Part shown: in pieces, positions 43,317 through 64,000 of the stretch
Numbering within the stretch: position 1 is the stretch's first letter
Layout: every line of letters starts with the position of its first letter
Source of the DNA: Candidatus Omnitrophota bacterium
Lineage (GTDB): Bacteria; Omnitrophota; Gorgyraeia; Gygaellales; Profunditerraquicolaceae
Reading direction: 5' to 3'
Assembly: GCA_041650835.1 (NCBI GenBank)
Contig: JBAZKL010000004.1
Coordinates: forward strand, 230,900-294,899
Length of the DNA: 64,000 nucleotides
Notes under the pieces: model-generated
The model's database searches: none
Told to the model about the DNA's origin: nothing
Seen by the model: only the letters and a program-made list of their open reading frames with translations
Position numbers and translations under genes: made by a program

Positions 43317-44573
43317 CTACGTCCCCATCTCCCAGCTTGACAAATATTTCTTCTGCTCTTCAGTCAAGGTATCGATCCTTGCCCCCATTGATTTTAATTT
43401 CAACCGGGCGATATTGGTATCGATATCCTGCGGGACCCGATAAACCTTGTTATCCAATTGCTTATAGTTCTTGATGATATATTCAGCGCTGAGCGCCTGG
43501 TTGGCAAAAGACATATCCATGACGCTGGCGGGATGGCCCTCTGCCGCCGCGAGATTAATTAACCGGCCTTCTCCTAAAAGATAGATCCTGCGCCCGTCTT
43601 TAAGCGTATATTCATCGACGAAATCGCGTATCATCCTCTTGCTCTTGGCGAGGCTCTCTAAACCGGGAATATCGATCTCGACGTTAAAATGCCCGGAATT
43701 AGAAACTATCGCCCCGTCTTTCATGGTCTGGAAATGTTCTTTACGGATGACATTAATATCGCCGGTGACCGTCACGAAAATTTCGCCGAGCTTCGCGGCA
43801 TCCTTAATCGGCATGACCTGGAAGCCGTCCATGACAGCTTCAATGGCCTTTAACGCCGAAACTTCCACCACCACGACATTGGCGCCCATGCCTTTGGCGC
43901 GCATAGCAACACCCCTGCCGCACCAGCCGTACCCGCAGACCACAAGCGTGCTGCCGGCTAATAATTTATTGGTAGCGCGGATGATGCCGTCAATGGTAGA
44001 CTGGCCCGTGCCGTAACGATTATCAAAAAAATGCTTGGTTTCCGCGTCATTAACGGCAACGATAGGATAACGCAGCTTTCCTTCTTCCGCCAACGCCCTC
44101 AAACGGATAACGCCGGTTGTCGTTTCCTCGGTGCCGCCGATGATATTGCTGTGCGCGGAGGGGTCACGTTTATGGATAGTGCTGACAAGGTCGGCCCCGT
44201 CATCCATGGTTATCTCAGGTTTGACCGCCAAAGCCGCTTCCATATGTTTATAATACGTTTTTGTATCTTCGCCTTTAATGGAGAACACGGCGATCTTAAG
44301 GTCCTGCGCTAAAGAAGCAGCGACATCATCCTGAGTCGATAACGGGTTAGACGCGCACAGCGTAAGCTGGGCGCCGCCGGTCTTTAGAACTTCCATTAAA
44401 ACAGCAGTTTCGGTGGTCACGTGCAAGCAACAGGCGACCTTTAATCCGGCGAGCGGTTTTTCTTTCTTAAAACGCTCCGCGATAAGTTTTAAAACGGGCA
44501 TATTGTTACGCGCCCATTCAATCCGTAACGCGCCTCTTTTCGCCAACTTCAGATCTTTAACGTCATGTTTCAT
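43317..44573 (-). CDS. ahcY: Adenosylhomocysteinase.
   Basis: SAH hydrolase NAD-binding and catalytic motifs ([12 protein letters not shown]..., GYGWCGRG). Confidence 0.9.
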
Positions 44574-44605
44574 AATTTCTCCCTTTTAAAGATGATACGG
44601 GTTAA

Positions 44606-44652
44606 TAGTCCACAGTCCATAGTCCATAGTCGATGGACCATGGGCCATGGGC
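44606..44652. repeat. Palindromic gtccatag / ccatgg word element between metK and ahcY.
   Basis: agtccacagtccatagtccatagtcgatggaccatgggccatggg. Confidence 0.45.
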
Positions 44653-44662
44653 TAAAAACTTT

Positions 44663-45841
44663 TTATAACTTCGACGCGTGTTTTTTCAATGCCGCTGATT
44701 TATCCGTCATTTCCCATTTAAACTCAGCTTCACTTCGTCCAAAATGGCCGTAGCAAGCTGTCCTGCGGTATATCGGACGCAACAGCTCGAGCGTCTTAAT
44801 GATCCCGCCGGGAGTAAGGTCGAAATTCTCCCGGATAAGCTTTACGAATTTATCGTCGGAAAGTTTTCCCGTATCAAAGGTATTGACAAAGATCGATAAT
44901 GGATCGGCATAACCGATAACATAGGATAACTGTACCATGAATTTATCGGCCAGGCCTGCGTCAACGATATTCTTGGCGATATACCGGCACATGTAAGCGG
45001 CAGAACGGTCGACCTTGGTCGGATCTTTACCTGAAAACGCTCCGCCTCCATGAGGTACAACACCGCCGTAGGTATCAACGATTATCTTTCTTCCCGTCAT
45101 ACCGGTGTCCGACTGCGGACCGCCGATCACGAATTTCCCCGTCTGATTCACATAATATTTCGTATGCTTATCGATCAACCCGGTCAAACCCGGCTTGGCG
45201 ATCACCTCGATCATCTCCTGGCGCGCCTTATCAGTGATATTCTGGCCTGATTTATCCAGGATATCTTCCGTATGCTGGCAGGCGAGAACGACCGAATCAA
45301 CGCGGACCGGTTTATCGTTCTCATATTCAATAGTGACCTGCGATTTACAATCCGGCCCTAAATATTTTAACGTGCCGTTGCGGCGGACATCAGCCATGCG
45401 TTTTACCAATTTATGCGCCAGTATTATCGGAAGCGGCATAAGCTCCTCGGTCTCACGGCAGGCATAACCGAACATAATGCCCTGGTCTCCGGCTCCGCCG
45501 GCGTTGACCCCTTGCGCGATATCGGGAGACTGGCTGTTTATGGTATTAACAATAGCGCAGGTCTCATAATCAAATCCGTATTTGGGATCGGTGTAACCTA
45601 TTTCCTGGATCACCTTGCGCGCGAGCTTCTGAATATCCACATACGCGTTCGTGGTAATTTCTCCTCCGACGATCAAAAGCCCCATCGTTACATACGTCTC
45701 GCAGGCGACCCTGCTTTTTTCTTTATCTTTATCAGCGGTTAACACCTGGTCTAAAACAGCGTCGGATATCTGGTCGCAAACCTTATCCGGATGGCCTTCC
45801 CCGACCGACTCCGATGTAAAATAATGTTTTTTTATAGCCAT
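44663..45841 (-). CDS. metK: S-adenosylmethionine synthetase. The start is at MAIKKHYF.
   Basis: GEGHPDK, GAGDQG and the remaining MetK motifs. Confidence 0.9.
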
Positions 45842-46133
45842 AGCTGCTCCTTGCAGATACCTTACCTGGCCTTTTTCGCGGGCTGTCAACCTTATTAAAA
45901 AAAGCCGTAAGATCACCTGCGCCTGCCGTTATTATTAAGCAGGGTTGACCCCGACACCGGTAAACACCGGTATCAAGATATTATTATTAAACAAACTTCC
46001 CCGACCCGTGCGATGATACAAATCTTTTCTCAAAACCTCTTTTTCCGGTATTCTGCGTTGGCGAAGCCAAACACATACGGATAAAAACAGCTTCCTCCCG
46101 GGATGAATACCGCGCAAGTCGGCCTGCGCTTGA

Positions 46134-54871: not shown

Positions 54872-56173
54872 TTATTTGCGGCCCTTTATATCTTTAATAA
54901 CCGTAACGATCCGAGTGACTTTGCCGCCTTCTAAAACAGGTATTTTCCTTGTTTCCGTGGAATAACGCTTATCTTTTATCTTAACTCTTTCTTTCGTAAC
55001 CAGCGTCTTTCTGGTTTTCAAGACTTTTTGATATTCATCATATACGCTTTCAGACAAAAAGGGGAAAACCTCAAACAATTCCTTGCCGATAACAGGGCCC
55101 TTAATCCGTATATTCTTAGTCCACTGCGTAAAGACCTTATTGAGCAAAAGGATCCGCAACTGACGGTCAACAACATGAACCGCGTCCCCCATCGAGTCCA
55201 GCGTCATACGATACTGCAATTCGGAGGACTTCCTCTTCTCTTCAGCAAGCTTATATTCGGTAATATCATACAAATGGCCCAGATAATGCGTAATACGGCC
55301 GGCATCATCCTGAGGAAGGATCGTAAAAACATGCACCCACTTATAGATACCGCCTAAACACCGGATACGGTATTCAGCTTCAAAACAGCCCGTGCTCTTC
55401 TTTATATTCTCTTTAACATCTTCTTCTAAACGCTTACGGTCATCAGGATGAAGCAGGTTAGCGTATAGTATCTTTCCGGTCATAAAATCGGCCGGTTCAT
55501 AGCCAAACTGGTTTGAAACATTTTCCGATACATACTCTACCGGCCAACCTTCCTGCGCCTTCCACTTGAATACTACGGTCGGGCCGCTGATAAACAATTT
55601 CCTTTCCGCATCCAGCTCTTCCTGTATCCTGATACGCTTATCGATCTCAAGATGAAGGTCTTCATTGGCTTTACTGAGTTCTGCGGTACGCACCTTGACC
55701 CGGATCCCCAATTCAGCCCGGGAATTCCGCAGATCTTCTTCCATTTTCTTACGCTCGGTAATATCAAAAATGACGCCTACCAACCCTCCGGTAAGGCCAA
55801 CTTCATTCAGAAATGTTTCTTTATAAAACACGACATTGTGCTTGGCGCCGTTTGTTGCGGAAACATAGCTTTCATATTCCTGAATGCCGCCTTCTTTAAA
55901 TAATTCCCGGTCTTTTTTATAGTAAATTTCAGCCAGGTCTTTCGGAAAAAGCTCAAAAACTGTCTTACCGATCAATTGCTCTTTCGATAAACCTACATAG
56001 CGCTCAAACTCCAGGTTACACCCTAAATACTTACCGGAAAAATCTTTATAGAAAATAGGAATAGGGATAGCATCGATCACGACCTGCAAGAAACGCAATT
56101 GCTCCTGCGATTCATTAAACGCCTGCTCTCTCTTGTTCGAAGCTGATTCGGAATTATGGTTTTGATCCTGCAT
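54872..56173 (-). CDS. Cytoplasmic sensor protein with three tandem PAS domains and no recognisable output domain.
   Basis: Three PAS-like repeats (IPIPIFYKDFSGKYLGCN...; GPTVVFKW...; MGDAVHVVDRQLRILLLNK...) separated by coiled-coil linkers. Confidence 0.7.
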   Translation of the reverse strand: MQDQNHNSESASNKREQAFNESQEQLRFLQVVIDAIPIPIFYKDFSGKYLGCNLEFERYVGLSKEQLIGKTVFELFPKDLAEIYYKKDRELFKEGGIQEYESYVSATNGAKHNVVFYKETFLNEVGLTGGLVGVIFDITERKKMEEDLRNSRAELGIRVKVRTAELSKANEDLHLEIDKRIRIQEELDAERKLFISGPTVVFKWKAQEGWPVEYVSENVSNQFGYEPADFMTGKILYANLLHPDDRKRLEEDVKENIKKSTGCFEAEYRIRCLGGIYKWVHVFTILPQDDAGRITHYLGHLYDITEYKLAEEKRKSSELQYRMTLDSMGDAVHVVDRQLRILLLNKVFTQWTKNIRIKGPVIGKELFEVFPFLSESVYDEYQKVLKTRKTLVTKERVKIKDKRYSTETRKIPVLEGGKVTRIVTVIKDIKGRK

Positions 56174-56271: not shown

Positions 56272-56299
56272 TATTATAACACTCGCTCTTAAGCTGTCA
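56272..56299 (-). promoter_or_regulatory. Near-consensus sigma70 promoter (TTGACA-16-TATAAT) for the PAS gene. It overlaps the stop of the upstream radical-SAM gene.
   Basis: Both hexamers match consensus exactly when read on the minus strand. Confidence 0.5.
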
Positions 56300-57415
56300 A
56301 CCTTTGATTTTGGCTTTTTTATCGAAAACCCCGGAAGGATATCCGGATTTGACCTCAAAAGGATACTCGTGGTACTCGTAATCCAATTTAAAGAAAAGGC
56401 TCATTTGAGCCATTTTTTCAATGATCTTGCTGATTGGCTTATCTTGCGCGGATATAAAAGAGGGATTATTCCTTATTTTCAAATAGCGCGAATCAATACC
56501 CGGGCAAATAATGCCTAAGCCGCATTCCAGGCATTCTTTATGTGTATGAGCGCTTTGATTATAATTAAACATGGGTTCCGGTTTAAAGGATGTATTCTTT
56601 CCCAAAACCTGATCATTATAGAAAAACATTTTGTTTTTTCTCAGCTTTAACGGCAGCTCAAGGCAGAGATATTCAAAACCTTTATACAAACATAGTGGGA
56701 AACGGCTTATAACAACACCTATATCGTTACTAACCGCATATTTAATGACACTCTGAAGATAACCGGCAAACTTATTATAATCAGGGATAAGCTGCGGATC
56801 CTCACAGACCCGCCCCTCAAGATTAAGCGTCTTTATATGTACCAAAAAATCCCTGCCGCCTAAGAGCTTTTTCAACAGCTTGAAAACCGCCAGTATTTTA
56901 GTGTAATTGAGGGAATTCGGGATGAAATTAAAAAAGATCACCATTTTACTTTTATAATCCCTGATATTTTCCACCCCTCTGATCAACTCATCAAAAGCAT
57001 CCACGCCCATAAGGGCTCGAAACATCGCTTTATCGTGAGCATGCACGGAGATTTCAATAGAATCGAGGTATTTTAAGATCCGCCGCGCGAATTTCCGGTC
57101 AGCGAATTTAATGCCATTGGTGACTAAATACGTCTTTATCCCCTGACGGTGAATGAAGCGCAATATCTCCTCCAAGTCTTCCCGCAGCGTTGTCTCCCCC
57201 CCCATAAAATTGATCGCTTCAATACCCATCGATTTAAGCTTCAGCACAGTTTGTTTGATAACGCTCAAATCGACATTAACCGGGTGAGTATGCCGGCCTT
57301 CGGAGCAAAACAGGCAACGCGCGTTACAAAACGAAGTCACATTCAGGATCGCCGTCTCACCCTTGATCTTCCTAACGCCGGTCTTAAGATTTGGCAATAT
57401 GCTCATAATATTCAA
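56297..57415 (-). CDS. Radical SAM protein (CNARCLFC) with a C-terminal Cys-rich auxiliary-cluster region; last gene of the radical-SAM operon.
   Basis: CxxxCxxC in the first 35 aa, a GGE motif (NFMGGETTL) and a C-terminal HTHKECLECGLGIICPG. Confidence 0.75.
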   Translation of the reverse strand: MNIMSILPNLKTGVRKIKGETAILNVTSFCNARCLFCSEGRHTHPVNVDLSVIKQTVLKLKSMGIEAINFMGGETTLREDLEEILRFIHRQGIKTYLVTNGIKFADRKFARRILKYLDSIEISVHAHDKAMFRALMGVDAFDELIRGVENIRDYKSKMVIFFNFIPNSLNYTKILAVFKLLKKLLGGRDFLVHIKTLNLEGRVCEDPQLIPDYNKFAGYLQSVIKYAVSNDIGVVISRFPLCLYKGFEYLCLELPLKLRKNKMFFYNDQVLGKNTSFKPEPMFNYNQSAHTHKECLECGLGIICPGIDSRYLKIRNNPSFISAQDKPISKIIEKMAQMSLFFKLDYEYHEYPFEVKSGYPSGVFDKKAKIKG

Positions 57416-57420
57416 TAAAG

Positions 57421-59073
57421 TTATTTACCGGCACGTTGCCGGATATATGGCTTGCTCAGGGTGACAGAAACATCCTTTCCGATAAACTTTCTTGCCGCGT
57501 GGTCCCGGGTCTTAATAATAAATGACGCGGAAAACTCCCGGAATAATATAAATTTGCTTTGCATGGTATGTATCGCCTGGCCGCAATCAATAAAACAGGT
57601 TGACGGATATTTCCGCCTCAGGCCTCCTGAAGCGCGATGCCCATGCACCCAGACCTCAGGCATCAACTCCACAGGAAGAAGCTCAGTAAGCAACTGAGCG
57701 GCCTTGCCGACTTTTATCAAATCAACAGGGTAATGAGAGAACACGATCCTGATAGAATCGGCTTTCCTCTTTAAAATGTTCATCAGCTTCTCAAAGGTTT
57801 CTTCGCGTATCGTATCCGCAGCGGCCAATTCTTTATCGGCAGGAAAAGCGTCTATCGGTAAAATAATAGAGCAAATATTACCATCCTCGAAAAACGTAAA
57901 CAGCTTACCGCAAAGGTATTTACGAAACCACGTAAGGAGCGGCTTCCTGTTCTTATAAACATAGTCATGATTCCCCAGGACATGCGTGATCGATCTTCTC
58001 TGCGCACAAACAGCAAGAATTCTTTTATATGCCGTATACGCCGCGGCCCCCCGGTCGCCCTCCACCGTATCACCCACAAAAAAGCCTTTTGACCAGAAAA
58101 CCGAATTACTATCCCGCAGTATCGCCCCTACCTTGCCTGCGTTGGTTCCTGAGGCATGCAGGTCCGCGAGGCACCAGAAAGAAAGGTATTTATCCGGAGC
58201 GTTTATCGTGTTGAGCTCCCCCTCACAGCCTAAAGCGTCCCGGCAGCGAAGACACTCTTTTTTCTTACTTACCATTCTGTTTATAAGCGGCGCCAAGCGC
58301 TTGCGTTTACCGTCTTCAAAGACGACAGAGATATCCCTTACATTTGTATTTTCTTTGATCTTGAATTTATTCAAGCCTCTCGCGAGGCAGCGGGGGATAA
58401 AATAAAGCGTTCCCCGGGCCAAACGGACCGACGCGAGGTTACGGACTAACCTGCGGATATCCGCGTAGTCGAGCAATTTATCCTTATCGATATCGACTTC
58501 ACCGGTAAAATCAAGGCGGAAAGGCACTACCGGGCTTACCATAAAGAAATTAATGCCCCGTTGAGCGAAGAAATCGAGCGTCGTATGGGCATGGGCAATA
58601 TTATAACGGTGGAGCAAAAGGCTGCCCCCCAAATCTATCCCTTTTCCGCGAAGGTTCTTAATGCCCCGCGTGAGCTCCTGAAAACTTCCGCTTACCCCGG
58701 TAATCTTTTCATGGACACCTTGTTTATGCGAATGAAGCGAAAAGACCACCTTAGTCACGCCCGCCGCGACGATCCTCCTGCAAAAATCCCGATAATACAA
58801 CATCCTCCCGTTGGTAAAGAGCGTTATGTGCCTGAAGCCATTCTCGCGCGCCTGACTGACGTACTCAAATATACGCGGGCTGGTGGTAGGTTCCGCCCCT
58901 CTTAAATCAATGCGCGTAACTCCTCGCCCGGCAGCGTTCTTGATCGCCGCCAATACAAAATCTTTGTCGGGGGAGCCGGATGGATGGATTTTGCAAAAGA
59001 AGCATGCGTTATTACACGCATGGGTAAACTGAATGATGATTATTTTTTTACGTTTTTCTTCCAAACTCAACAT
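57421..59073 (-). CDS. Fusion protein: N-terminal radical SAM domain (CNNACFFC) plus a C-terminal calcineurin-like metallophosphoesterase domain.
   Basis: Radical-SAM core to about aa 300 (GAEPT, CLRCRDALGCEG), then MPP motifs ADLHAS, GDTVEGDRG, GNHD, HGH. Confidence 0.75.
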   Translation of the reverse strand: MLSLEEKRKKIIIIQFTHACNNACFFCKIHPSGSPDKDFVLAAIKNAAGRGVTRIDLRGAEPTTSPRIFEYVSQARENGFRHITLFTNGRMLYYRDFCRRIVAAGVTKVVFSLHSHKQGVHEKITGVSGSFQELTRGIKNLRGKGIDLGGSLLLHRYNIAHAHTTLDFFAQRGINFFMVSPVVPFRLDFTGEVDIDKDKLLDYADIRRLVRNLASVRLARGTLYFIPRCLARGLNKFKIKENTNVRDISVVFEDGKRKRLAPLINRMVSKKKECLRCRDALGCEGELNTINAPDKYLSFWCLADLHASGTNAGKVGAILRDSNSVFWSKGFFVGDTVEGDRGAAAYTAYKRILAVCAQRRSITHVLGNHDYVYKNRKPLLTWFRKYLCGKLFTFFEDGNICSIILPIDAFPADKELAAADTIREETFEKLMNILKRKADSIRIVFSHYPVDLIKVGKAAQLLTELLPVELMPEVWVHGHRASGGLRRKYPSTCFIDCGQAIHTMQSKFILFREFSASFIIKTRDHAARKFIGKDVSVTLSKPYIRQRAGK

Positions 59074-59086
59074 GGATGGACCTGCG

Positions 59087-60199
59087 CTATTTTACTCTCT
59101 CGGAATAATGATAAAAACAGCCTTTACAGGCGGGAGACAGGCTTCGGGCAAACAAAGCCCTTACCTCTTGCGCCTGATGGCCATTCCAGATTTCCGCAAA
59201 AGAACGCTCCTTAATATTACCTATAAAAACATCATGACAGATATAAATATCGCCATTAGGCATAAGATTGACCTGATGCCAGGGCGCCGTGCAATACCGG
59301 CGGTAATGTAATGCCCCCCGGTTATCTTTATAATACGGGATAATTTCATCCGGGTACAGATCCGGACTGAAAGACACCGCGCGGTTCTTTTTGACTTTCT
59401 TGATCTCGGCAATAAACCGGGAGAAATCAATATCCCCCGGAGAATAGGTATATCCCGGCCAAAGTTCAAGCGACGTAATATTGAACTTCTCCCGTAAAAA
59501 CTTTTTTTGCATTTCCAGCGTCTCCTGATTTATAAACATGAGATGCTGAAAATGGTAGTTGTCTACTGCTATGCCGGCCTGCCGCATGAACTCAATGAAC
59601 TCTCCCATATAAGCATAACTGAGATCCGAAAGAGTATATAAAACACTTAACCGGGGCCGGTTGGCGTGTTTTTTCTTATACAGCGTAAGAGCGTCCAACC
59701 CCTCGATGATCGCCTTAAAATGAGCGAAAGAATTCTCCCTGATCAAATGAAGGATTGACGGCGGGCCACCCAGGGAAAGACTGACCTGGTCTAATACCCG
59801 GACAACCTTTGTAAGGTTTTTTAAAAGATAGACGCCGTTTGTGGTAACGGAAACCCGCACCCCCCGTTCTTTAAAACACCGGGCAAGGTGGTACCAACGG
59901 GGAGATAAAAGCGGTTCCCCTCCCGAAAAAGTCACCGTCTTGGGGCTAAACGCCGTAATTTCCTGCGCGAATTTTTCCAGGTCTTTGCGGCTTAAAGAGG
60001 CTTTATATTTGTTAAGGAACCCTTTTTTTCTGCACGGCCCGTGGATCCCCCACCACGAACAAACTTTACAGCGCAGGTTACAGCGCAGTGAAAACATGAT
60101 ATAAACCTCTCCTACAGAAGAGGCCTTCAATAAATCATTACTGGCCCTTCCCTTAAGGGATAAAGCCAAAGCTTGCGTATCTACTTTTAGATCAAGCAT
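59087..60199 (-). CDS. Radical SAM / SPASM-domain protein (CNLRCKVC).
   Basis: SGGEPLL and a C-terminal SPASM pattern CTAPW...NGDIYICHDVFIGNI...CKGCFYHY. Confidence 0.8.
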   Translation of the reverse strand: MLDLKVDTQALALSLKGRASNDLLKASSVGEVYIMFSLRCNLRCKVCSWWGIHGPCRKKGFLNKYKASLSRKDLEKFAQEITAFSPKTVTFSGGEPLLSPRWYHLARCFKERGVRVSVTTNGVYLLKNLTKVVRVLDQVSLSLGGPPSILHLIRENSFAHFKAIIEGLDALTLYKKKHANRPRLSVLYTLSDLSYAYMGEFIEFMRQAGIAVDNYHFQHLMFINQETLEMQKKFLREKFNITSLELWPGYTYSPGDIDFSRFIAEIKKVKKNRAVSFSPDLYPDEIIPYYKDNRGALHYRRYCTAPWHQVNLMPNGDIYICHDVFIGNIKERSFAEIWNGHQAQEVRALFARSLSPACKGCFYHYSERVK

Positions 60200-62199
60200 C
60201 GCGCGTCTCCTGGTCCCTGCCGCTTGAGCGGGAAATACATATGCGAGTGAAAGAATTCCCAGAACATCTCCTCGATAATGAAATTATTCATAACGATCTC
60301 TTTTTCCCGAGAGCCGTTCTTATGCGAACGCATAAGACGGCATAACGCGGCGTCAAGTTCAGCGGTAAAAGCCTTACGATGCCCGGGAGCAGCGATATCG
60401 CCGATGTAAGCGGTTCTTTTAAGGTATTGAAAGCGTTTTGAGGAAATAAGGCTCCCGCAGAGATACATCTTGCCTTCGAGATCAACGGTAATCCCGGGGA
60501 ACGCAGCGCCGCAAGCGCCGGTTTGCCCGCAATTCAATATCTGAGCTGCCTTACGGAAATAAAGGTCCCTGCTTATTCTAAAAAGACAGACAAAAGCCCG
60601 TGCCACGCAAGACGCGTCATACAAAACAGCCGGATCATAAGAAAACATTATTTTTTTCACTCCCCGCCCTGCCAAAAAAGAAACATTTTCCTTAAAGCCT
60701 TCAAGATTTAATAAGGGGACATCCAGCATGACCCCGAAATCTCCGCCGCGATCATTGAAACGTTTTATCATTGCCGATACCTGCCGCTTTAAGGATGCCG
60801 GGCAAGCTCCACCATCGATCTTCAAAAGATACGTCACCTTCTGCCGTGAAAGAAAATCAATTTTTTCTTCATCAAGCGATAACCCGGGGCTTACCAGCGT
60901 GCAGGTAAGCTGCTTGGGATGAGAAGCCATTCTTTGCCGGGTATAGAGAAGTGCTGCCCTGATCATTTCAAAACACGCAAAAGGCTCTTTGCAGGAGAAT
61001 TCCAGTTCGACCTTATTCTCTAAAGAAGCAAACAGCATATCAATGCTTTTCTTTAAAGCCCTCTCACCCATGAACGCTTCAGTGCCCGCGCGGGAATAAG
61101 GGCGCTGCAGGGACCGCTCCGGGTGAAGAAAGAAAATGATTTTCCTGAATGAAAAATAACGCTCCCCCCTGATCTTCTTTTTGAACGGATGGCTCTCAAA
61201 GAGGTCGTATTCCCGGCGTAAATGATTAAATTTATATAAAAACTCTCCTGCGATCCCCGCATAAATATTAGCCAGCAATTTCCGGTCCAGGAAGCGGGCG
61301 TGCCTGCGGATAAGCGCTGCCTGCGCGCCTTTAGTCATTTTTAAAGCCGTCAACTCCTTAAAATCATCAAGTTTACCAAAATAAAAAATACGGTTTAATT
61401 CCGGGCACAGCTTCTCCAATACCAGCGCGCACCCGATAAAGACCTTTCCGCCGGCAGTGATATTGATCTGCGGACAATACAATATCGGCTCGCAATCAGC
61501 CTCAAAATTCAGGATCCGGCCCCCCGTCCCTTGTACTGCTTTGAGCAAACCACACAATTCCCGGATAAACACGAAAGAATCCTTCTCTGAATATTTCTGT
61601 CCCAGCGCGTAAGCGACCCAAATACGCAGCATCCCTTTACTTCTTAAAAAATCGATGTTCTTGCGCACCCCGGGAATATCTTCGCGCAAAACCACCATAT
61701 TCACGAAATATCGGATCTTATACTTATTCAACAGGCCGATATTGCGCAGCAACTGTGAAAAATAATCTTCATTCCCCGCCTTCATCGGCCTGTTCTTTAA
61801 CTGCGTCACCTGAGCGCCGTCAATACTGACCATGACCTGGACTTTCTCACGAAAAAGAAAACCGGCCTTCTCTTCATCAAGAAGCAGCCCGTTAGTCGTA
61901 AGCAAATATTCGATGTTTTTGCCGGTGGCCTTTTTTTTCATGCCCGCATACGCTACTGCTTTTTTGATCAGGTCGAAGCGCAGCAGCGGTTCACCGCCGA
62001 AAAACTGTAATTCTATCTTCTTCTCAAAAGAAGTAAATAACAGGTCAATGGACTTTTTCAGAACATCTTCCGGCATATCCGGCTGGTCGCGGTTTAAGAA
62101 ACAATACCGGCACGACAACGGACAACGGGTAGTAAGCATCACCGCGACATTACGGATGCTCGACGGTTCTTTAAAGCGCGTGAACTCCACGCGTTCCAT
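60187..62199 (-). CDS. Twin radical-SAM/SPASM protein: an intact N-terminal domain (CPLSCRYC) followed by a duplicated second domain lacking the CxxxCxxC triad. The start is probably MERVEF.
   Basis: Internal repeat evident (DLLFTSFEKKIELQFFGGEPLLRFDLIKKAVAYA vs DMLFASLENKVELEFSCKEPFACFEMIRAALLYT). Both halves end in Cys-rich SPASM-like segments. Confidence 0.75.
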   Translation of the reverse strand: MERVEFTRFKEPSSIRNVAVMLTTRCPLSCRYCFLNRDQPDMPEDVLKKSIDLLFTSFEKKIELQFFGGEPLLRFDLIKKAVAYAGMKKKATGKNIEYLLTTNGLLLDEEKAGFLFREKVQVMVSIDGAQVTQLKNRPMKAGNEDYFSQLLRNIGLLNKYKIRYFVNMVVLREDIPGVRKNIDFLRSKGMLRIWVAYALGQKYSEKDSFVFIRELCGLLKAVQGTGGRILNFEADCEPILYCPQINITAGGKVFIGCALVLEKLCPELNRIFYFGKLDDFKELTALKMTKGAQAALIRRHARFLDRKLLANIYAGIAGEFLYKFNHLRREYDLFESHPFKKKIRGERYFSFRKIIFFLHPERSLQRPYSRAGTEAFMGERALKKSIDMLFASLENKVELEFSCKEPFACFEMIRAALLYTRQRMASHPKQLTCTLVSPGLSLDEEKIDFLSRQKVTYLLKIDGGACPASLKRQVSAMIKRFNDRGGDFGVMLDVPLLNLEGFKENVSFLAGRGVKKIMFSYDPAVLYDASCVARAFVCLFRISRDLYFRKAAQILNCGQTGACGAAFPGITVDLEGKMYLCGSLISSKRFQYLKRTAYIGDIAAPGHRKAFTAELDAALCRLMRSHKNGSREKEIVMNNFIIEEMFWEFFHSHMYFPLKRQGPGDARCLI

Positions 62200-64000
62200 A
62201 TTTGCGGACATATGCGGACCAGACTCCTTCGCACCAGCCATTTTCTTTGCATGATGCGCAAAACTTAAACTTGATCTTTTTTGACGCGCGTTGTTTAACG
62301 CACTTACTCAAAGTACCCTTAAGCGTCATGACTTCATCAAAAGGACGGTACGGCTCAAAGGCGCGCAGGCTCAATTGAGCTAACGAACATAAAGGAAAAC
62401 CTTCGCAATAAAGCTTCCGGGTGAATTCCGGAAGCTGAGCGCTTATTCTGCGCAATTGGCGCGTAACTGCCGGTATCGCCGGGATGTCGGCTTGCGGGAC
62501 CTGTATATACCCCAACGAATTACTTACGAAAACAAGATGCAATTCATCAACACCCAGTTTTAGCAAGAACGCGCAGCATTCGTACAACGACTCAAGATTA
62601 GCGTTGGAGACAAAAAGGTCCGCCTGGATAGACAGGCAGCGCGCGTTCTCCCTGATATTCCTGATACCGGCAATTGCCTGGCGAAAAGCGCCTTTAACCA
62701 GGCTCTGCCGGTCATGAACATGCTCCAGCCCGAAAAAAGGTATAATGACTTTTTCCAAAGAGCTAAAACCCCCCAACGCTTTTACCAATCCCGGATACGA
62801 TAACAGACGGGCGTTGGTGTATAAGAAAAGGTTATGCATCTCCAACGCGTCGCTGTAACGCAGTATATCCATGATATCTTTCCTTAAGAGCGGCTCTGCG
62901 CCCGCCAAAACAACATACTCCCCTCTGCTCTTGGCAAGCTCAAGCTCTGAGCTTACCTGCGCGAAGCTTTTCTGCGCACGCAAGCGATCTTTCGCCAACA
63001 GGCAAAACTCACAATTATTATTACAGGTATTGGAGAGTTGTATAATGCTCGTCCGGGGCTTTATCATGCCGGAGAATTCTTCAAGCCTTTTTTCGCTATG
63101 CTCCAGGGTAAAAGCAGGCGGCGTGTGATCAGCGCCTAAATAATAATCTTTCCGGAGCAAGCCTTTCTGTTCAAAGATATCATGGATCAGCGTCATCGGA
63201 TAGACTTTGACAATGTTCACCAGCAGGTTATCCGGGTCACAATCACGGACATAACAGGCGGTTTCCCTTATCGTCTCCTCTGTTTCACCCAGATTTCCGA
63301 CCATAAGCATAAGAACAGTCCTGATCCCCGCGCGCGCGGTAAGCCGAAAGGCCTTTTTTGACTTTACTAAATCAAGGTTCTTGCCGGTCAAACGCTGGAT
63401 CCGCACGGATGCGCTCTCTAATCCATAAGATATCTCAAAACAGCCTGCCCGCGCCATGAGGACCAGTAACGGCGCGTCGACCGAATCTGAACGGGTCATA
63501 CATGTCCAGCTTATTTTAAGCCCTGCTTTCAGGATCCCTTCGCATATCGCGACAACTCTTTTCCTGTCCCGTGTAAAGAAATTATCGCCAAAAACAAAAT
63601 TCCTGATCTTGAACTTTTCATGAAAATGCCCGACCATCGCGACAAAATACCCGGGGCTGTGAAAGCGTATCTTGTCCCCCGTCACCTTGCTCATCGGGCA
63701 AAAATTACAACTATAGACACAACCGCGGGAAGAAAGCAATAAGAGAGCGTTGCGGAAGCTTGTGCAGCGCTTCCCCAGGATAAAATTTTTCTTAGCTGAA
63801 AGGCTGTCCGGGCAGTTTATCTTTTTCTGAAAACCCTTAAAAAGATGGAACGCAGGATAAGCCAGGCGATCCAGATCGGTAATACCGCGCCGGTCTTTGG
63901 TACGCGCCACTTTCCCATGCCGCAGATACGCGATCCCGTCAATCGCGCCGGTATCTCCTTTTGTTTTCAGGCAAGAGACTAATTCGACAAAAGTCCGCTC
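62171..64000 (-). CDS. Class-B (B12-binding type) radical SAM protein carrying a second radical-SAM domain. The 5' end is partial: the reading frame stays open to the window edge.
   Basis: ...IDGIAYLRHGKVARTKDRRGITDLDRLAYPAFHLF...SSRGCVYSCNFC (class-B hallmark), then LSNTCNNNCEFC (second CxxxCxxC) and C-terminal CASCKENGWCEG. No stop between 63910 and 64000. Confidence 0.75.
   Translation of the reverse strand, partial: ERTFVELVSCLKTKGDTGAIDGIAYLRHGKVARTKDRRGITDLDRLAYPAFHLFKGFQKKINCPDSLSAKKNFILGKRCTSFRNALLLLSSRGCVYSCNFCPMSKVTGDKIRFHSPGYFVAMVGHFHEKFKIRNFVFGDNFFTRDRKRVVAICEGILKAGLKISWTCMTRSDSVDAPLLVLMARAGCFEISYGLESASVRIQRLTGKNLDLVKSKKAFRLTARAGIRTVLMLMVGNLGETEETIRETACYVRDCDPDNLLVNIVKVYPMTLIHDIFEQKGLLRKDYYLGADHTPPAFTLEHSEKRLEEFSGMIKPRTSIIQLSNTCNNNCEFCLLAKDRLRAQKSFAQVSSELELAKSRGEYVVLAGAEPLLRKDIMDILRYSDALEMHNLFLYTNARLLSYPGLVKALGGFSSLEKVIIPFFGLEHVHDRQSLVKGAFRQAIAGIRNIRENARCLSIQADLFVSNANLESLYECCAFLLKLGVDELHLVFVSNSLGYIQVPQADIPAIPAVTRQLRRISAQLPEFTRKLYCEGFPLCSLAQLSLRAFEPYRPFDEVMTLKGTLSKCVKQRASKKIKFKFCASCKENGWCEGVWSAYVRKYGTRGVHAL

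What the first reader, a model, noticed from the sequence alone, without database searches (positions are those of the whole stretch)
62171..64000. Class-B (B12-type) radical SAM carrying a second complete radical-SAM domain; gene truncated by the window
Downstream of the class-B linker motif (GITDLDRLAYPAF) and the first cluster (CVYSCNFC), a second CxxxCxxC (CNNNCEFC) with its own GAEPLL-type motif follows, then a C-terminal Cys cluster. Double radical-SAM architectures with a B12-binding domain are rare. The minus-strand frame is open from 63910 to 64000, so the cobalamin-binding domain and the true start lie outside the window.
Basis: partly seen in the sequence, partly recalled or inferred. 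Interest (0 to 1): 0.65.

Follow-up and report, generated by a model that had tools for sequence, protein, structure and literature searches.

The report
Two-headed B12 radical-SAM maturase gene
A gene cut off by the window edge encodes one protein with a vitamin-B12 module and two separate radical-SAM catalytic cores. It sits in a six-gene, eight-core radical-SAM operon whose relatives lie in giant enzyme arrays next to His-Xaa-Ser repeat peptides, and its chemistry is still unknown.

Summary
The minus-strand ORF 62171-64000 runs off the window. Two public contigs, 100% identical to the window over their full overlap (14.9 and 10.7 kb), supply the missing 130 residues. The complete protein has 739 aa: a B12-binding domain, a class-B radical-SAM (rSAM) core (CVYSCNFC), a second rSAM core (CNNNCEFC, GAEPLL) and a tail with four invariant Cys. 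AlphaFold gives pLDDT 93. The N half resembles TsrM, CysS and AprD4; the C half resembles SkfB, BlsE and MoaA.

About 77 full-length homologues exist, almost all in Omnitrophota and Elusimicrobiota. The first cluster motif is invariant. The second is canonical in only 29 of 66 aligned members, this one included.

The gene is the second of six consecutive rSAM genes carrying eight intact cluster motifs. Full-length orthologues of four of them (B, D, E, F) lie in one array of 22 rSAM genes that opens with HxsD, HxsB and an HxsA4-like (S-H-G)n peptide. Some Elusimicrobia arrays also carry group VI nitrogenase-like genes.

No HxsA, HxsB, HxsD or Nfl gene lies within about 70 kb here. The most likely role is a bifunctional maturase of an expanded His-Xaa-Ser system. 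The substrate and reaction are inferred, not shown.

The parts
62171..64000 (-). Gene B (the finding). These are residues 131-739 of a 739-aa protein with a B12-binding domain, a class-B rSAM core, a second rSAM core and a Cys-rich tail. The true start lies 390 nt beyond the window, at window-equivalent 64390.
   Evidence: The identical contigs L001 and L002 supply the N-terminus. P0001 is 100% identical and is named 'MAG: radical SAM protein [Candidatus Omnitrophota bacterium]'.
63257..63733 (-). First radical-SAM core (aa 220-378), class-B type. Its cluster motif CVYSCNFC lies at 63698-63721.
   Evidence: Pfam PF04055 matches aa 220-378. C224, C228 and C231 are invariant in 66/66 homologues. 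PDB sequence search finds AprD4 at 1.7e-19. Foldseek finds TsrM, CysS, AprD4, MgmA, OxsB and TokK.
63848..63886 (-). Linker GITDLDRLAYPAF between the B12 domain and the first rSAM core.
   Evidence: D174, L176, P177 and P179 are invariant or nearly invariant in the family.
62528..63052 (-). Second radical-SAM core (aa 447-621), HxsC/MoaA/SkfB-like. Its motif CNNNCEFC lies at 63002-63025 and its GGE-type motif GAEPLL at 62885-62902.
   Evidence: NCBIfam: HxsC4 69 bits, HxsC 48.7, AhbD 47.6, all far below their cut-offs. It aligns to SkfB and BlsE. Foldseek finds SkfB, BlsE, MoaA and viperin. The motif is canonical in 29/66 homologues, CX3CC in 24/66 and absent in 13/66.
62198..62476 (-). C-terminal auxiliary-cluster domain (aa 639-731), twitch/SPASM-like. 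C668 (62387-62389) and C711-x2-C714-x5-C720 (62231-62260) are all invariant.
   Evidence: 66/66 for each Cys. The model shows a beta-hairpin followed by a helix. There is no PF13186 SPASM hit.
60187..62211 (-). Gene C (674 aa from the called start, or 684 aa from the ATG at 62241). It is an HxsB/PapB-like rSAM core (CPLSCRYC, GGEPLL) followed by a degenerate second rSAM repeat that has lost both the Cys motif and GGE. It overlaps the end of gene B.
   Evidence: Alignment with the L007 orthologue, which keeps CQMGCSYC and GGEPLL in the second repeat.
59087..60199 (-). Gene D (370 aa), rSAM plus SPASM. It is the most widely co-conserved partner of gene B, at 33-57% identity over its full length in relatives.
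57421..59073 (-). Gene E (550 aa), an HxsC4/HxsC-like rSAM core fused to a calcineurin-like metallophosphoesterase.
   Evidence: Full-length orthologues in L087 (38%) and L088 (37%) are each followed by an F orthologue.
56297..57406 (-). Gene F (369 aa), a MoaA/HxsC/viperin-like rSAM. It is the last gene of the operon.
   Evidence: A consensus promoter for the next gene follows directly.

Best explanation
The gene encodes a single 739-aa enzyme with two radical-SAM active sites. The first module is a cobalamin-binding Rossmann domain plus a class-B rSAM barrel, the kind that usually methylates or rearranges unactivated carbon. It is fused to an HxsC/twitch-type rSAM barrel with its own SAM cluster and one auxiliary [4Fe-4S] cluster held by four invariant cysteines. 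The protein belongs to a conserved, uncharacterised family found mainly in Omnitrophota and Elusimicrobiota. That family lives inside multi-rSAM arrays of the expanded HxsA4-type His-Xaa-Ser system. I infer that it is a bifunctional peptide maturase. Both heads would act in succession on the same (Ser-His-Gly)n-type core peptide, one delivering B12-dependent carbon chemistry and the other abstracting hydrogen for cross-linking or oxidation. In this genome it works with the five neighbouring rSAM genes (operon A-F, eight intact cluster motifs), and the precursor is encoded elsewhere. Shown: the architecture, the fold, the family, the conservation pattern and the gene neighbourhoods. Inferred: that both heads are active, the substrate, the reaction types and the order of action.
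For: Architecture: with an AF2 model at pLDDT 93.2 and pTM 0.91 and Foldseek matching both halves to solved rSAM enzymes. Family: about 77 full-length homologues at 32-80% identity and roughly 24 near-full-length loci among species-representative genomes (L006-L035; a few more are cut by contig ends). Cluster ligands: the first motif and the four tail Cys are invariant, and the second motif is canonical in the Omnitrophota branch, including this protein. Link to Hxs: a true HxsB (523 and 494 bits, cut-off 370), HxsD (67.5 bits, cut-off 50, plus PF27806) and HxsA4 (NF038313 95.5 bits, cut-off 55; NCBI's own name for it) lie a few kb upstream of B-family genes in L003, L007, L010, L011, L014, L016, L023 and L087, with cut copies in L022 and L034. 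One Omnitrophica array (L087 plus L004) holds HxsD, HxsB, an HxsA4-like peptide (37 bits, below the model's cut-off of 55) and then 22 rSAM genes, including full-length orthologues of B (46%), D (38%), E (38%) and F (53%). The B-C-D order is kept in L007 and L010. Fusions recur in different permutations: three-core B variants P0009 and P0030, a four-motif 1293-aa protein in L010, and 96 of 145 closest relatives with several cores. This is what one expects of enzymes that work together on one substrate. Precedent: HxsB and HxsC mature HxsA in E. coli, including a +8 Da (+C/-4H type) change on an SHRSS motif (PMC13128918).
Against: The window plus L001 (about 70 kb) contains no HxsA, no true HxsB, no HxsD and no Nfl gene, and neither does the 22-kb L006 locus of the 79%-identical relative. 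The operon has no room for a precursor gene. No operon protein reaches the curated cut-off of any Hxs model: HxsC4 scores 69 and 81 against 500, HxsC 49-71 against 268, HxsB 134 against 370. The second SAM-cluster motif is dispensable in much of the family, so two-site catalysis is not a family-wide property. The best NCBIfam match of the first core is BchE, a tetrapyrrole enzyme. No biochemical data exist for any member.
Confidence: 0.55

Rival explanations
1. The operon tailors a small molecule, such as a tetrapyrrole-type cofactor or a lipid, and not a peptide. On this reading the class-B head is BchE/HpnJ-like and the second head AhbD/NirJ-like, as was proposed for the radical-SAM suites next to group VI nitrogenase paralogues in Elusimicrobia.
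For: The best NCBIfam hits are BchE (142 bits) and HpnJ for head 1, and AhbD and NirJ are among the hits for head 2 and for gene D. B-family genes sit directly upstream of NflH-NflD-NflK in L012, L017 and L031. Meheust et al. predicted tetrapyrrole reduction for such loci (10.1101/765248), and this is still listed as 'unknown cofactor synthesis' in 2026 (PMC13474568). No precursor gene lies in or near the operon here. Gene E carries a phosphoesterase domain and gene F is MoaA/viperin-like, both of which hint at nucleotide-like substrates.
Against: All of these scores are far below the family cut-offs (142 against 481 for BchE) and are typical of generic class-B and SPASM similarity. Loci L022 and L023 carry HxsA4 and NflD/NflK together in one array, so the Nfl context itself points to a peptide. 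Gene C and many array members are most similar to peptide maturases (PapB, SCIFF, HxsB). No tetrapyrrole or lipid genes were found among the roughly 25 window ORFs (of about 55) that I annotated.
Confidence: 0.2
2. The second radical-SAM domain is not a second catalyst. It would be a structural, substrate-docking or electron-relay module that keeps only its auxiliary cluster, so the protein is in effect a single class-B enzyme with a large accessory domain.
For: The second CX3CX2C is replaced by CX3CC in 24 of 66 homologues and is absent in 13, while the four tail cysteines are invariant. The neighbouring gene C shows the same trend: its second repeat has lost both the Cys motif and GGE. NCBIfam already curates a 'pseudo-SAM/SPASM' family, and it appears among the weak hits.
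Against: In this protein, and in nearly all of its Omnitrophota clade, the motif is canonical and the GGE-type motif (GAEPLL) is kept. Both align to the functional motifs of SkfB and BlsE. Retention over 45-80% sequence divergence argues for selection on the cluster ligands.
Confidence: 0.15
3. The operon is an antiphage defence system of the canonical HXS kind, in which HxsB and HxsC mature a periplasmic HxsA effector that blocks phage DNA entry.
For: The canonical HXS system is an experimentally shown defence system built from HxsA-D (PMC13128918). The relatives' arrays contain true HxsB, HxsD and HxsA4.
Against: None of the four defining HXS genes is present here. PADLOC gives only weak generic radical-SAM hits. 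The operon is embedded in core chromosome between addAB-like genes and rpsB-tsf-pyrH-frr, with the same flanks in a 79%-identical relative, so this is not a defence island. HxsA4 peptides lack the peptidoglycan-binding domain and differ greatly from E. coli HxsA. By that paper's count, 99.7% of canonical systems are in Pseudomonadota.
Confidence: 0.07
4. The two-core ORF is an assembly or frameshift artefact that joins two adjacent genes.
For: Adjacent genes in these arrays often overlap by a few bases and encode similar domains, so a single-base error could fuse two of them.
Against: The same sequence occurs in three independent assemblies with 0 mismatches. About 77 homologues down to 32% identity share the architecture. 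The AF2 model is one compact, confident chain with pTM 0.91.
Confidence: 0.01

Closest known systems
Cobalamin-dependent (class B) radical-SAM enzymes: TsrM, CysS, TokK, OxsB, AprD4, MgmA/QCMT, BchE, HpnJ, ApyD
   Same: An N-terminal B12-binding Rossmann domain (PF02310) followed by an rSAM barrel with CX3CX2C. The sequence and fold matches are the best of all comparisons.
   Different: No curated equivalog cut-off is reached (best is BchE at 142 bits against 481). None of the solved class-B enzymes matched here carries a second rSAM core, and a search of the held literature found no description of one.
HxsC / HxsC4 of the His-Xaa-Ser system (TIGR03977, NF038332); the canonical HXS antiphage system (PMC13128918)
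   Same: The second core scores best against HxsC4 and HxsC. Orthologues of this gene sit in arrays that open with HxsD, HxsB and HxsA4. The system is rSAM-dependent maturation of an HxS-repeat protein.
   Different: The scores are far below the cut-offs (69 against 500, 48.7 against 268). This operon has no HxsA, HxsB or HxsD nearby. The relatives' arrays hold 10-22 rSAM genes and not two. HxsA4 is a short (S-H-G)n...GQW peptide and not a peptidoglycan-binding protein with five repeats. The phyla differ (Omnitrophota and Elusimicrobiota versus Pseudomonadota).
Twitch/SPASM radical-SAM enzymes: SkfB, BlsE, MoaA, PqqE, SuiB
   Same: A partial TIM barrel plus a C-terminal Cys-rich domain with a beta-hairpin and a CX2CX5C motif. 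These are the closest solved structures for the C-terminal half.
   Different: There is only one set of four invariant Cys, with Trp where the SPASM motif has its fourth Cys. There is no PF13186 hit. The domain is fused behind another complete rSAM enzyme.
FbiC (FO synthase, the CofG-CofH fusion)
   Same: One polypeptide with two rSAM domains that use two separate 5'-deoxyadenosyl radicals on one pathway. The two halves are separate genes in other organisms (PMC11917521). This is the best functional analogy for a two-headed enzyme.
   Different: It is not homologous beyond the superfamily. FbiC has no B12 domain and no auxiliary-cluster tail, and it acts on a small molecule.
Radical-SAM suites next to group VI nitrogenase-like (Nfl) paralogues in Elusimicrobia (Meheust et al. 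2020)
   Same: This is the same protein family. B-family genes lie directly upstream of NflH/D/K in L012, L017 and L031, and within 10 kb of NflD-like genes (NflK-like too in three of them) in L022, L023, L027 and L028. That paper noted B12-fused rSAM genes.
   Different: There are no Nfl genes in this window. The paper did not describe the two-core architecture or, in the passages I read, the HxsA-type peptides.

Membership tests
Class B (cobalamin-dependent) radical SAM | N-terminal cobalamin-binding Rossmann domain (PF02310) | tested here: met
   PF02310 matches aa 26-138 at 52.1 bits against a cut-off of 32.1, on the full-length protein recovered from the identical contig L001. Only aa 131-138 of this domain lie inside the window.
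Class B (cobalamin-dependent) radical SAM | rSAM core with a CX3CX2C motif directly after the B12 domain, and a fold like solved class-B enzymes | tested here: met
   PF04055 matches aa 220-378. C224, C228 and C231 are invariant in 66/66 homologues. Foldseek finds TsrM at 4.7e-20, plus CysS, AprD4, MgmA, OxsB and TokK.
Class B (cobalamin-dependent) radical SAM | Actual cobalamin binding and use | not testable with these tools
   This needs purified protein. Of the relatives, AprD4 is (from my own knowledge) a class-B-like enzyme that works without cobalamin.
Named class-B equivalogs (BchE, HpnJ, ApyD, PhpK, AprD4) | Score at or above NCBIfam's curated cut-off | tested here: not met
   BchE 142.1 against 481, ApyD 133.7 against 750, HpnJ 111.2 against 578, PhpK 103.8 against 600, AprD4 94.3 against 500.
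Radical SAM superfamily (second domain) | CX3CX2C and a GGE-type SAM motif that align to an rSAM core | tested here: met
   There is a second PF04055 stretch. CNNNCEFC aligns to SkfB CNLSCSFC, and GAEPLL aligns to GGE of SkfB and BlsE. Foldseek finds SkfB, BlsE, MoaA and viperin.
Radical SAM superfamily (second domain) | Cluster ligands conserved across orthologues, as expected for an obligatory catalytic site | tested here: not met
   29/66 are canonical, 24/66 have CX3CC and 13/66 have none. The motif is conserved within the Omnitrophota branch only.
SPASM/twitch auxiliary-cluster domain | A C-terminal Cys motif (CX2CX5C...) after a beta-hairpin, with conserved ligands | tested here: inconclusive
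   C668, C711, C714 and C720 are invariant in 66/66, and the model shows a hairpin plus helix.
Canonical HXS (His-Xaa-Ser) system | An HxsA repeat protein encoded with the enzymes | tested here: not met
   No HxS-repeat ORF, HxsA4 leader (SEEGK) or GQW tail occurs in the window, L001 or L006.
Canonical HXS (His-Xaa-Ser) system | HxsB, HxsC and HxsD equivalogs | tested here: not met
   HxsB: gene C scores 133.7 against 370. HxsC: head 2 of gene B scores 48.7, gene E 65.8 and gene F 70.8, against 267.9. HxsD: no tblastn hit.
Expanded HxsA4/HxsC4-type arrays | Orthologues embedded in arrays that contain HxsA4, true HxsB and HxsD | tested here: met
   This is met for the family. L003, L007, L010, L011, L014, L016, L023 and L087 carry HxsB at 494-523 bits (cut-off 370), HxsD at 67.5 bits (cut-off 50) and HxsA4 at 95.5 bits (cut-off 55), with orthologues of B, D, E and F in one array. 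It is not met locally in this genome.
Expanded HxsA4/HxsC4-type arrays | Score at or above the HxsC4 (NF038332) cut-off | tested here: not met
   69.3 bits for head 2 of gene B and 81.1 for gene E, against 500.
Group VI Nfl-associated radical-SAM suite | NflH/NflD/NflK encoded next to the rSAM genes | tested here: not met
   tblastn with the L012 NflH, NflD and NflK proteins finds nothing in the window. The feature is met in seven relatives' loci.

The most novel reading that the evidence does not exclude
The B-family protein would be the founding example of a two-headed radical-SAM enzyme in which a B12-dependent head and a second 5'-deoxyadenosyl-radical head process the same repeat peptide. 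The arrays of up to 22 consecutive rSAM genes in Omnitrophota and Elusimicrobiota would form an assembly line that turns a (Ser-His-Gly)n peptide into a heavily cross-linked or alkylated product. The 'group VI nitrogenase-like' paralogues would then be peptide-tailoring reductases, and not tetrapyrrole enzymes. In this genome the six-gene operon would be a detached module serving a precursor encoded elsewhere.
Probability: 0.3. Interest if true: 0.85.

Novelty: new variant of a known kind. Interest (0 to 1): 0.6.

Why it matters
Nearly all studied radical-SAM enzymes have one catalytic core. Here one core is fused to a B12-dependent one in a conserved family, and relatives carry up to four cores per protein and 22 rSAM genes per array. 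This is a large block of untouched radical chemistry in uncultured phyla.

The neighbourhoods also connect three things that the literature I could search treats separately: the HXS system (an antiphage system in E. coli), NCBI's rare HxsA4/HxsC4 variants, and the unexplained radical-SAM suite next to group VI nitrogenase-like genes. That gives a concrete, testable substrate, the (S-H-G)n...GQW peptide, for a question still listed as open in 2026.

Tried and rejected
- **Start of gene C.** An exact look-up with the 684-aa start found nothing. The gene callers use a 674-aa start, and the look-up with gene D recovered the contigs.
- **HemN and methylthiotransferase comparators.** HemN never appears among the hits. 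MiaB and RimO appear only as weaker generic structural matches, and for the upstream gene's second module.
- **Precursor inside the operon.** The genes abut or overlap, and the only gap is 124 bp.
- **Repeat-peptide searches.** The HxS regex, tandem-repeat finder and leader/tail motif searches found nothing in the window, L001 or L006. A generic low-complexity ORF screen was swamped by spurious ORFs in GC-rich Elusimicrobia loci and was abandoned.
- **Nitrogenase-like genes.** None in the window.
- **PADLOC.** Only weak pVip and PDC-M51A radical-SAM hits.
- **Exact look-ups.** Two more window proteins, tried to annotate the rest of the window, gave nothing.
- **Model coordinates.** They could not be read, so I could not measure distances between the three predicted cluster sites.
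- **Literature.** Searches for tandem, double or two-domain radical-SAM enzymes returned only FbiC.

Full report
**1. The observation**

Translating window 62171-64000 on the minus strand gives 609 codons with no stop, ending at TAA 62171-62173. The only in-window start listed is a GTG at 63910, and the frame stays open to the window edge.
- GITDLDRLAYPAF at 63848-63886
- CVYSCNFC at 63698-63721
- CNNNCEFC at 63002-63025
- GAEPLL at 62885-62902
- CASCKENGWC at 62231-62260

Pfam PF04055 matches in two stretches (E 1.3e-29). NCBIfam divides the fragment in two. Residues 1-290 match class-B enzymes (BchE, HpnJ, ApyD, AprD4) from about profile position 125 onward, which means roughly 130 N-terminal residues are missing. 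Residues 315-500 match HxsC4, HxsC, AhbD, NirJ and MoaA.

**2. Recovering the missing end**

An exact-protein look-up with the neighbouring 370-aa gene returned two public contigs. They are identical to the window over 14,914 and 10,733 bases, with 0 mismatches. In them the gene starts at an ATG 390 nt beyond the window (window-equivalent 64390) and encodes 739 aa.

The added residues carry PF02310 B12-binding (aa 26-138; 52.1 bits against a cut-off of 32.1).

**3. Both halves are radical-SAM cores**

An AlphaFold2 model built on 66 homologues is confident, with pLDDT 93.2 and pTM 0.91. Foldseek against the PDB matches the N half to TsrM, CysS, AprD4, MgmA, OxsB and TokK. It matches the C half to SkfB, BlsE, MoaA, viperin, PqqE and SuiB.

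By sequence, the second motif CNNNCEFC aligns to the SAM-cluster motif CNLSCSFC of SkfB. GAEPLL aligns to the GGE motif of SkfB and BlsE. The second refutation test (a motif that does not align to an rSAM core) also fails.

The tail (aa 639-731) has a beta-hairpin followed by a helix, and four Cys: C668, C711, C714 and C720. This looks like a twitch or half-SPASM domain with one auxiliary cluster. It gives no PF13186 hit, however, and the fourth SPASM cysteine is replaced by a nearly invariant Trp.

**4. The family**

A search of 5.8 billion proteins found the identical protein, annotated only as 'radical SAM protein' from a Candidatus Omnitrophota MAG. It also found about 77 full-length homologues (710-750 aa, 32-80% identity), all from Omnitrophota or Elusimicrobia wherever a name is given. 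Below these, only single class-B enzymes of about 470 aa appear.

In species-representative genomes, near-full-length relatives occur in roughly 24 of the loci L006-L035, and a few more are cut by contig ends. These include a few Polyangiaceae and 'Deltaproteobacteria' MAGs.

In the 66-sequence alignment, C224, C228 and C231 (head 1) and the four tail Cys are invariant. The second SAM-cluster motif is not. It is canonical in 29 sequences (the Omnitrophota branch, including this protein), reads CX3CC in 24 (Elusimicrobia), and is missing in 13. So the second head is probably active here, but it is not an obligatory catalytic site across the family.

**5. The operon**

The gene is the second of six tightly packed or overlapping radical-SAM genes on the minus strand:
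- **A** (1115 aa, outside the window): two class-B B12-rSAM modules in tandem plus a Cys-rich tail.
- **B**: the finding.
- **C** (674 aa, 60187-62211): an HxsB/PapB-like core followed by a degenerate second core.
- **D** (370 aa, 59087-60199): rSAM plus SPASM.
- **E** (550 aa, 57421-59073): an HxsC4-like core plus a metallophosphoesterase.
- **F** (369 aa, 56297-57406): MoaA/HxsC-like.

That makes eight intact cluster motifs in six genes. An AddB-like nuclease gene lies upstream. Downstream, a perfect TTGACA-16-TATAAT promoter precedes a PAS-domain gene. After that come a lipoprotein gene, a membrane-protein gene and rpsB-tsf-pyrH-frr.

The operon has no space for a precursor gene. The annotated parts of the window are core chromosome: BamA, GlmU, PFOR, LeuA, ilv genes, PFK, MetK and AhcY. 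PADLOC recognises nothing specific. A 79%-identical relative (L006) has the same operon and the same flanks.

**6. What the relatives' neighbourhoods show**

B-family genes in other genomes lie in very long runs of radical-SAM genes. In many of them three genes sit a few kb upstream:
- HxsD (PF27806; TIGR03976 67.5 bits against a cut-off of 50).
- A true HxsB (TIGR03978 523 and 494 bits against a cut-off of 370).
- A short peptide with a conserved leader (K-I-K-K-D-I-x-x-F-L-x-S-E-E-G-K), a hydrophobic helix, 4 to about 30 His-Xaa-Ser repeats (mostly S-H-G) and a C-terminal G-Q-W.

NCBI names the L007 peptide 'His-Xaa-Ser repeat protein HxsA4', and it passes NF038313 (95.5 bits against 55). 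A profile search finds 806 such peptides in Omnitrophota, Elusimicrobiota and DPANN archaea.

One Omnitrophica contig (L087 joined with L004) reads HxsD, HxsB, a 248-aa gene and an HxsA4-like peptide (37 bits, below the model's cut-off of 55), followed by 22 radical-SAM genes with 27 CX3CX2C motifs. Among them are full-length orthologues of E (38%), F (53%), D (38%) and B (46%). The B-C-D order is kept in L007 and L010, and the E-F pair recurs in L088.

So four of the six operon families have full-length orthologues in HxsA4-type arrays, and gene C has full-length orthologues in L007, L009 and L010. Only gene A has no full-length counterpart outside close relatives. This operon itself lies at least about 64 kb on one side, and 6 kb on the other, from any HxsA, true HxsB or HxsD.

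**7. Link to the nitrogenase-like paralogues**

In L012, L017 and L031 the trio of B, a C-like gene and a D-like gene is followed directly by NifH-, NifD- and NifK-like genes. L022, L023, L027 and L028 carry NflD-like genes within 10 kb of B, and three of them also carry NflK-like genes.

[quoted passage not shown] A 2026 review still lists their role as unknown cofactor synthesis (PMC13474568).

L023 has HxsD, HxsB, HxsA4, B, NflD and NflK within 16 kb, and L022 also has both HxsA4 and NflD/K. The peptide is therefore a candidate substrate for that whole system. I found no paper in the held library that makes this connection.

**8. Multi-core proteins are the rule here**

I searched the second domain alone against 1.84 billion representative proteins. 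It had 1066 relatives at E<=1e-10. Of the best 145, 45 carry one CX3CX2C motif, 75 carry two, 18 carry three and 3 carry four. Some of them come from Nanoarchaeota and Aenigmatarchaeota.

Within the B family there are three-core variants with the extra core at either end (P0009, P0030). L010 has a 1293-aa protein with four motifs. Repeated, independent fusions of neighbouring genes are what one expects of enzymes that act together on one substrate. Repeated loss of the Cys motif (head 2 of B in Elusimicrobia, repeat 2 of gene C here) shows that some copies become non-catalytic partners.

**9. Most likely mechanism**

*Shown.* The protein has one cobalamin-type domain, two rSAM barrels each with an intact CX3CX2C and a GGE-type motif, and one four-Cys auxiliary site. 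It sits in an operon of rSAM enzymes whose orthologues accompany HxsA4 peptides.

*Inferred.* Head 1 performs B12-dependent chemistry, most often methyl transfer to unactivated carbon in this class (established knowledge of class-B enzymes). Head 2 generates a second 5'-deoxyadenosyl radical for hydrogen abstraction and cross-linking or oxidation, with the auxiliary cluster serving electron transfer or substrate ligation as in twitch/SPASM enzymes. Both act on the same HxS-repeat peptide.

There are two precedents. In E. coli, HxsB and HxsC are needed for processing of HxsA and for a +8 Da (+C/-4H type) change on an SHRSS motif (PMC13128918). FbiC shows that two fused rSAM domains can use two radicals in one transformation (PMC11917521).

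My confidence in the architecture is about 0.95. For affiliation with the HxsA4-type arrays it is about 0.7. For a peptide substrate in this genome it is about 0.5.

**10. Verdict**

The protein is not a member of any curated equivalog family (see the membership table). It is an uncharacterised fusion variant within known superfamilies, so I rate it 'new variant of a known kind'.

Interest is moderate to high (0.6). The architecture is unusual for the field, and the context gives a testable substrate for a large and puzzling set of enzyme arrays. But nothing here reveals the reaction, and the link to the peptide rests on orthologues' neighbourhoods and not on this locus.

Noticed in passing
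L001 2435-5782 (just beyond the window end; window-equivalent 64418-67765, minus strand): The gene directly upstream of the finding encodes a 1115-aa protein with two complete class-B modules in tandem, each a B12-binding domain plus an rSAM core. The first has an unusual CX4CX2C motif (CYWGKCGFC), the second has CVNSCTYC, and a Cys-rich tail follows. Only close relatives (L006, 76% identity) have it at full length.
   Followed up: partly
window 60187-62211 (-): Gene C is an HxsB/PapB-like rSAM core followed by a second copy of the same fold that has lost both its CX3CX2C and its GGEPLL motif. The L007 orthologue keeps both, so this is a pseudo-radical-SAM repeat formed in this lineage.
   Followed up: yes
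window 57421-59073 (-) and 56297-57406 (-); L087 8334-11074; L088 8322-11095: An rSAM core fused to a calcineurin-like metallophosphoesterase (gene E) is always followed by a MoaA/HxsC-like rSAM (gene F). This pair is conserved in three separate lineages. A phosphoesterase in a presumed peptide pathway is unexplained.
   Followed up: partly
L023 3412-17000; L022; L012 10001-18188: HxsD, HxsB and an HxsA4 (S-H-G)n peptide lie in the same Elusimicrobia arrays as group VI nitrogenase-like NflD/NflK genes. The published proposal for those paralogues is tetrapyrrole chemistry. The repeat peptide is an alternative candidate substrate that the papers I could search do not mention.
   Followed up: partly
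L087 + L004 (contig SRR6482968_0, about 33 kb): After HxsD, HxsB and an HxsA4-like peptide come 22 consecutive radical-SAM genes carrying 27 CX3CX2C motifs, with almost no other gene types among them. This is one of the densest radical-SAM arrays I know of.
   Followed up: partly
proteins P0122, P0131, P0135, P0140, P0134 (one search hits): Single polypeptides of 1000-1400 aa carry three or four radical-SAM cores of the same HxsC-like subfamily. Where named, they come from Nanoarchaeota and Aenigmatarchaeota, so multi-core radical-SAM proteins extend to DPANN archaea.
   Followed up: partly
window 56273-56300 (-): A perfect sigma-70 consensus promoter (TTGACA, 16 nt with an upstream TG, TATAAT) sits in the 124-bp gap between gene F and the PAS-domain gene (54872-56173). 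It marks the end of the radical-SAM operon and a separate transcription unit for the PAS protein.
   Followed up: no
window 43317-45916 (-): SAM synthetase (MetK, 44663-45916) and S-adenosylhomocysteine hydrolase (AhcY, 43317-44573) are adjacent, about 10 kb downstream of the radical-SAM operon on the same strand. This may be coincidence in a core-gene region, but it is worth noting next to eight SAM-consuming cores.
   Followed up: no
L088 12079-13254: A Peptidase_A24 (prepilin-peptidase family) gene follows one of the arrays. The HxsA4 leader (F-L-x-S-E, followed by a hydrophobic helix) loosely recalls a class III signal, which may hint at how the leader is removed.
   Followed up: no
L003 17865-21377; also L012, L014, L016, L017, L019, L028: A protein of about 1170 aa that fuses ferredoxin-like domains, a NodU/CmcH-type carbamoyltransferase and an rSAM core recurs in the Elusimicrobia arrays. 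It has no counterpart in the window.
   Followed up: no
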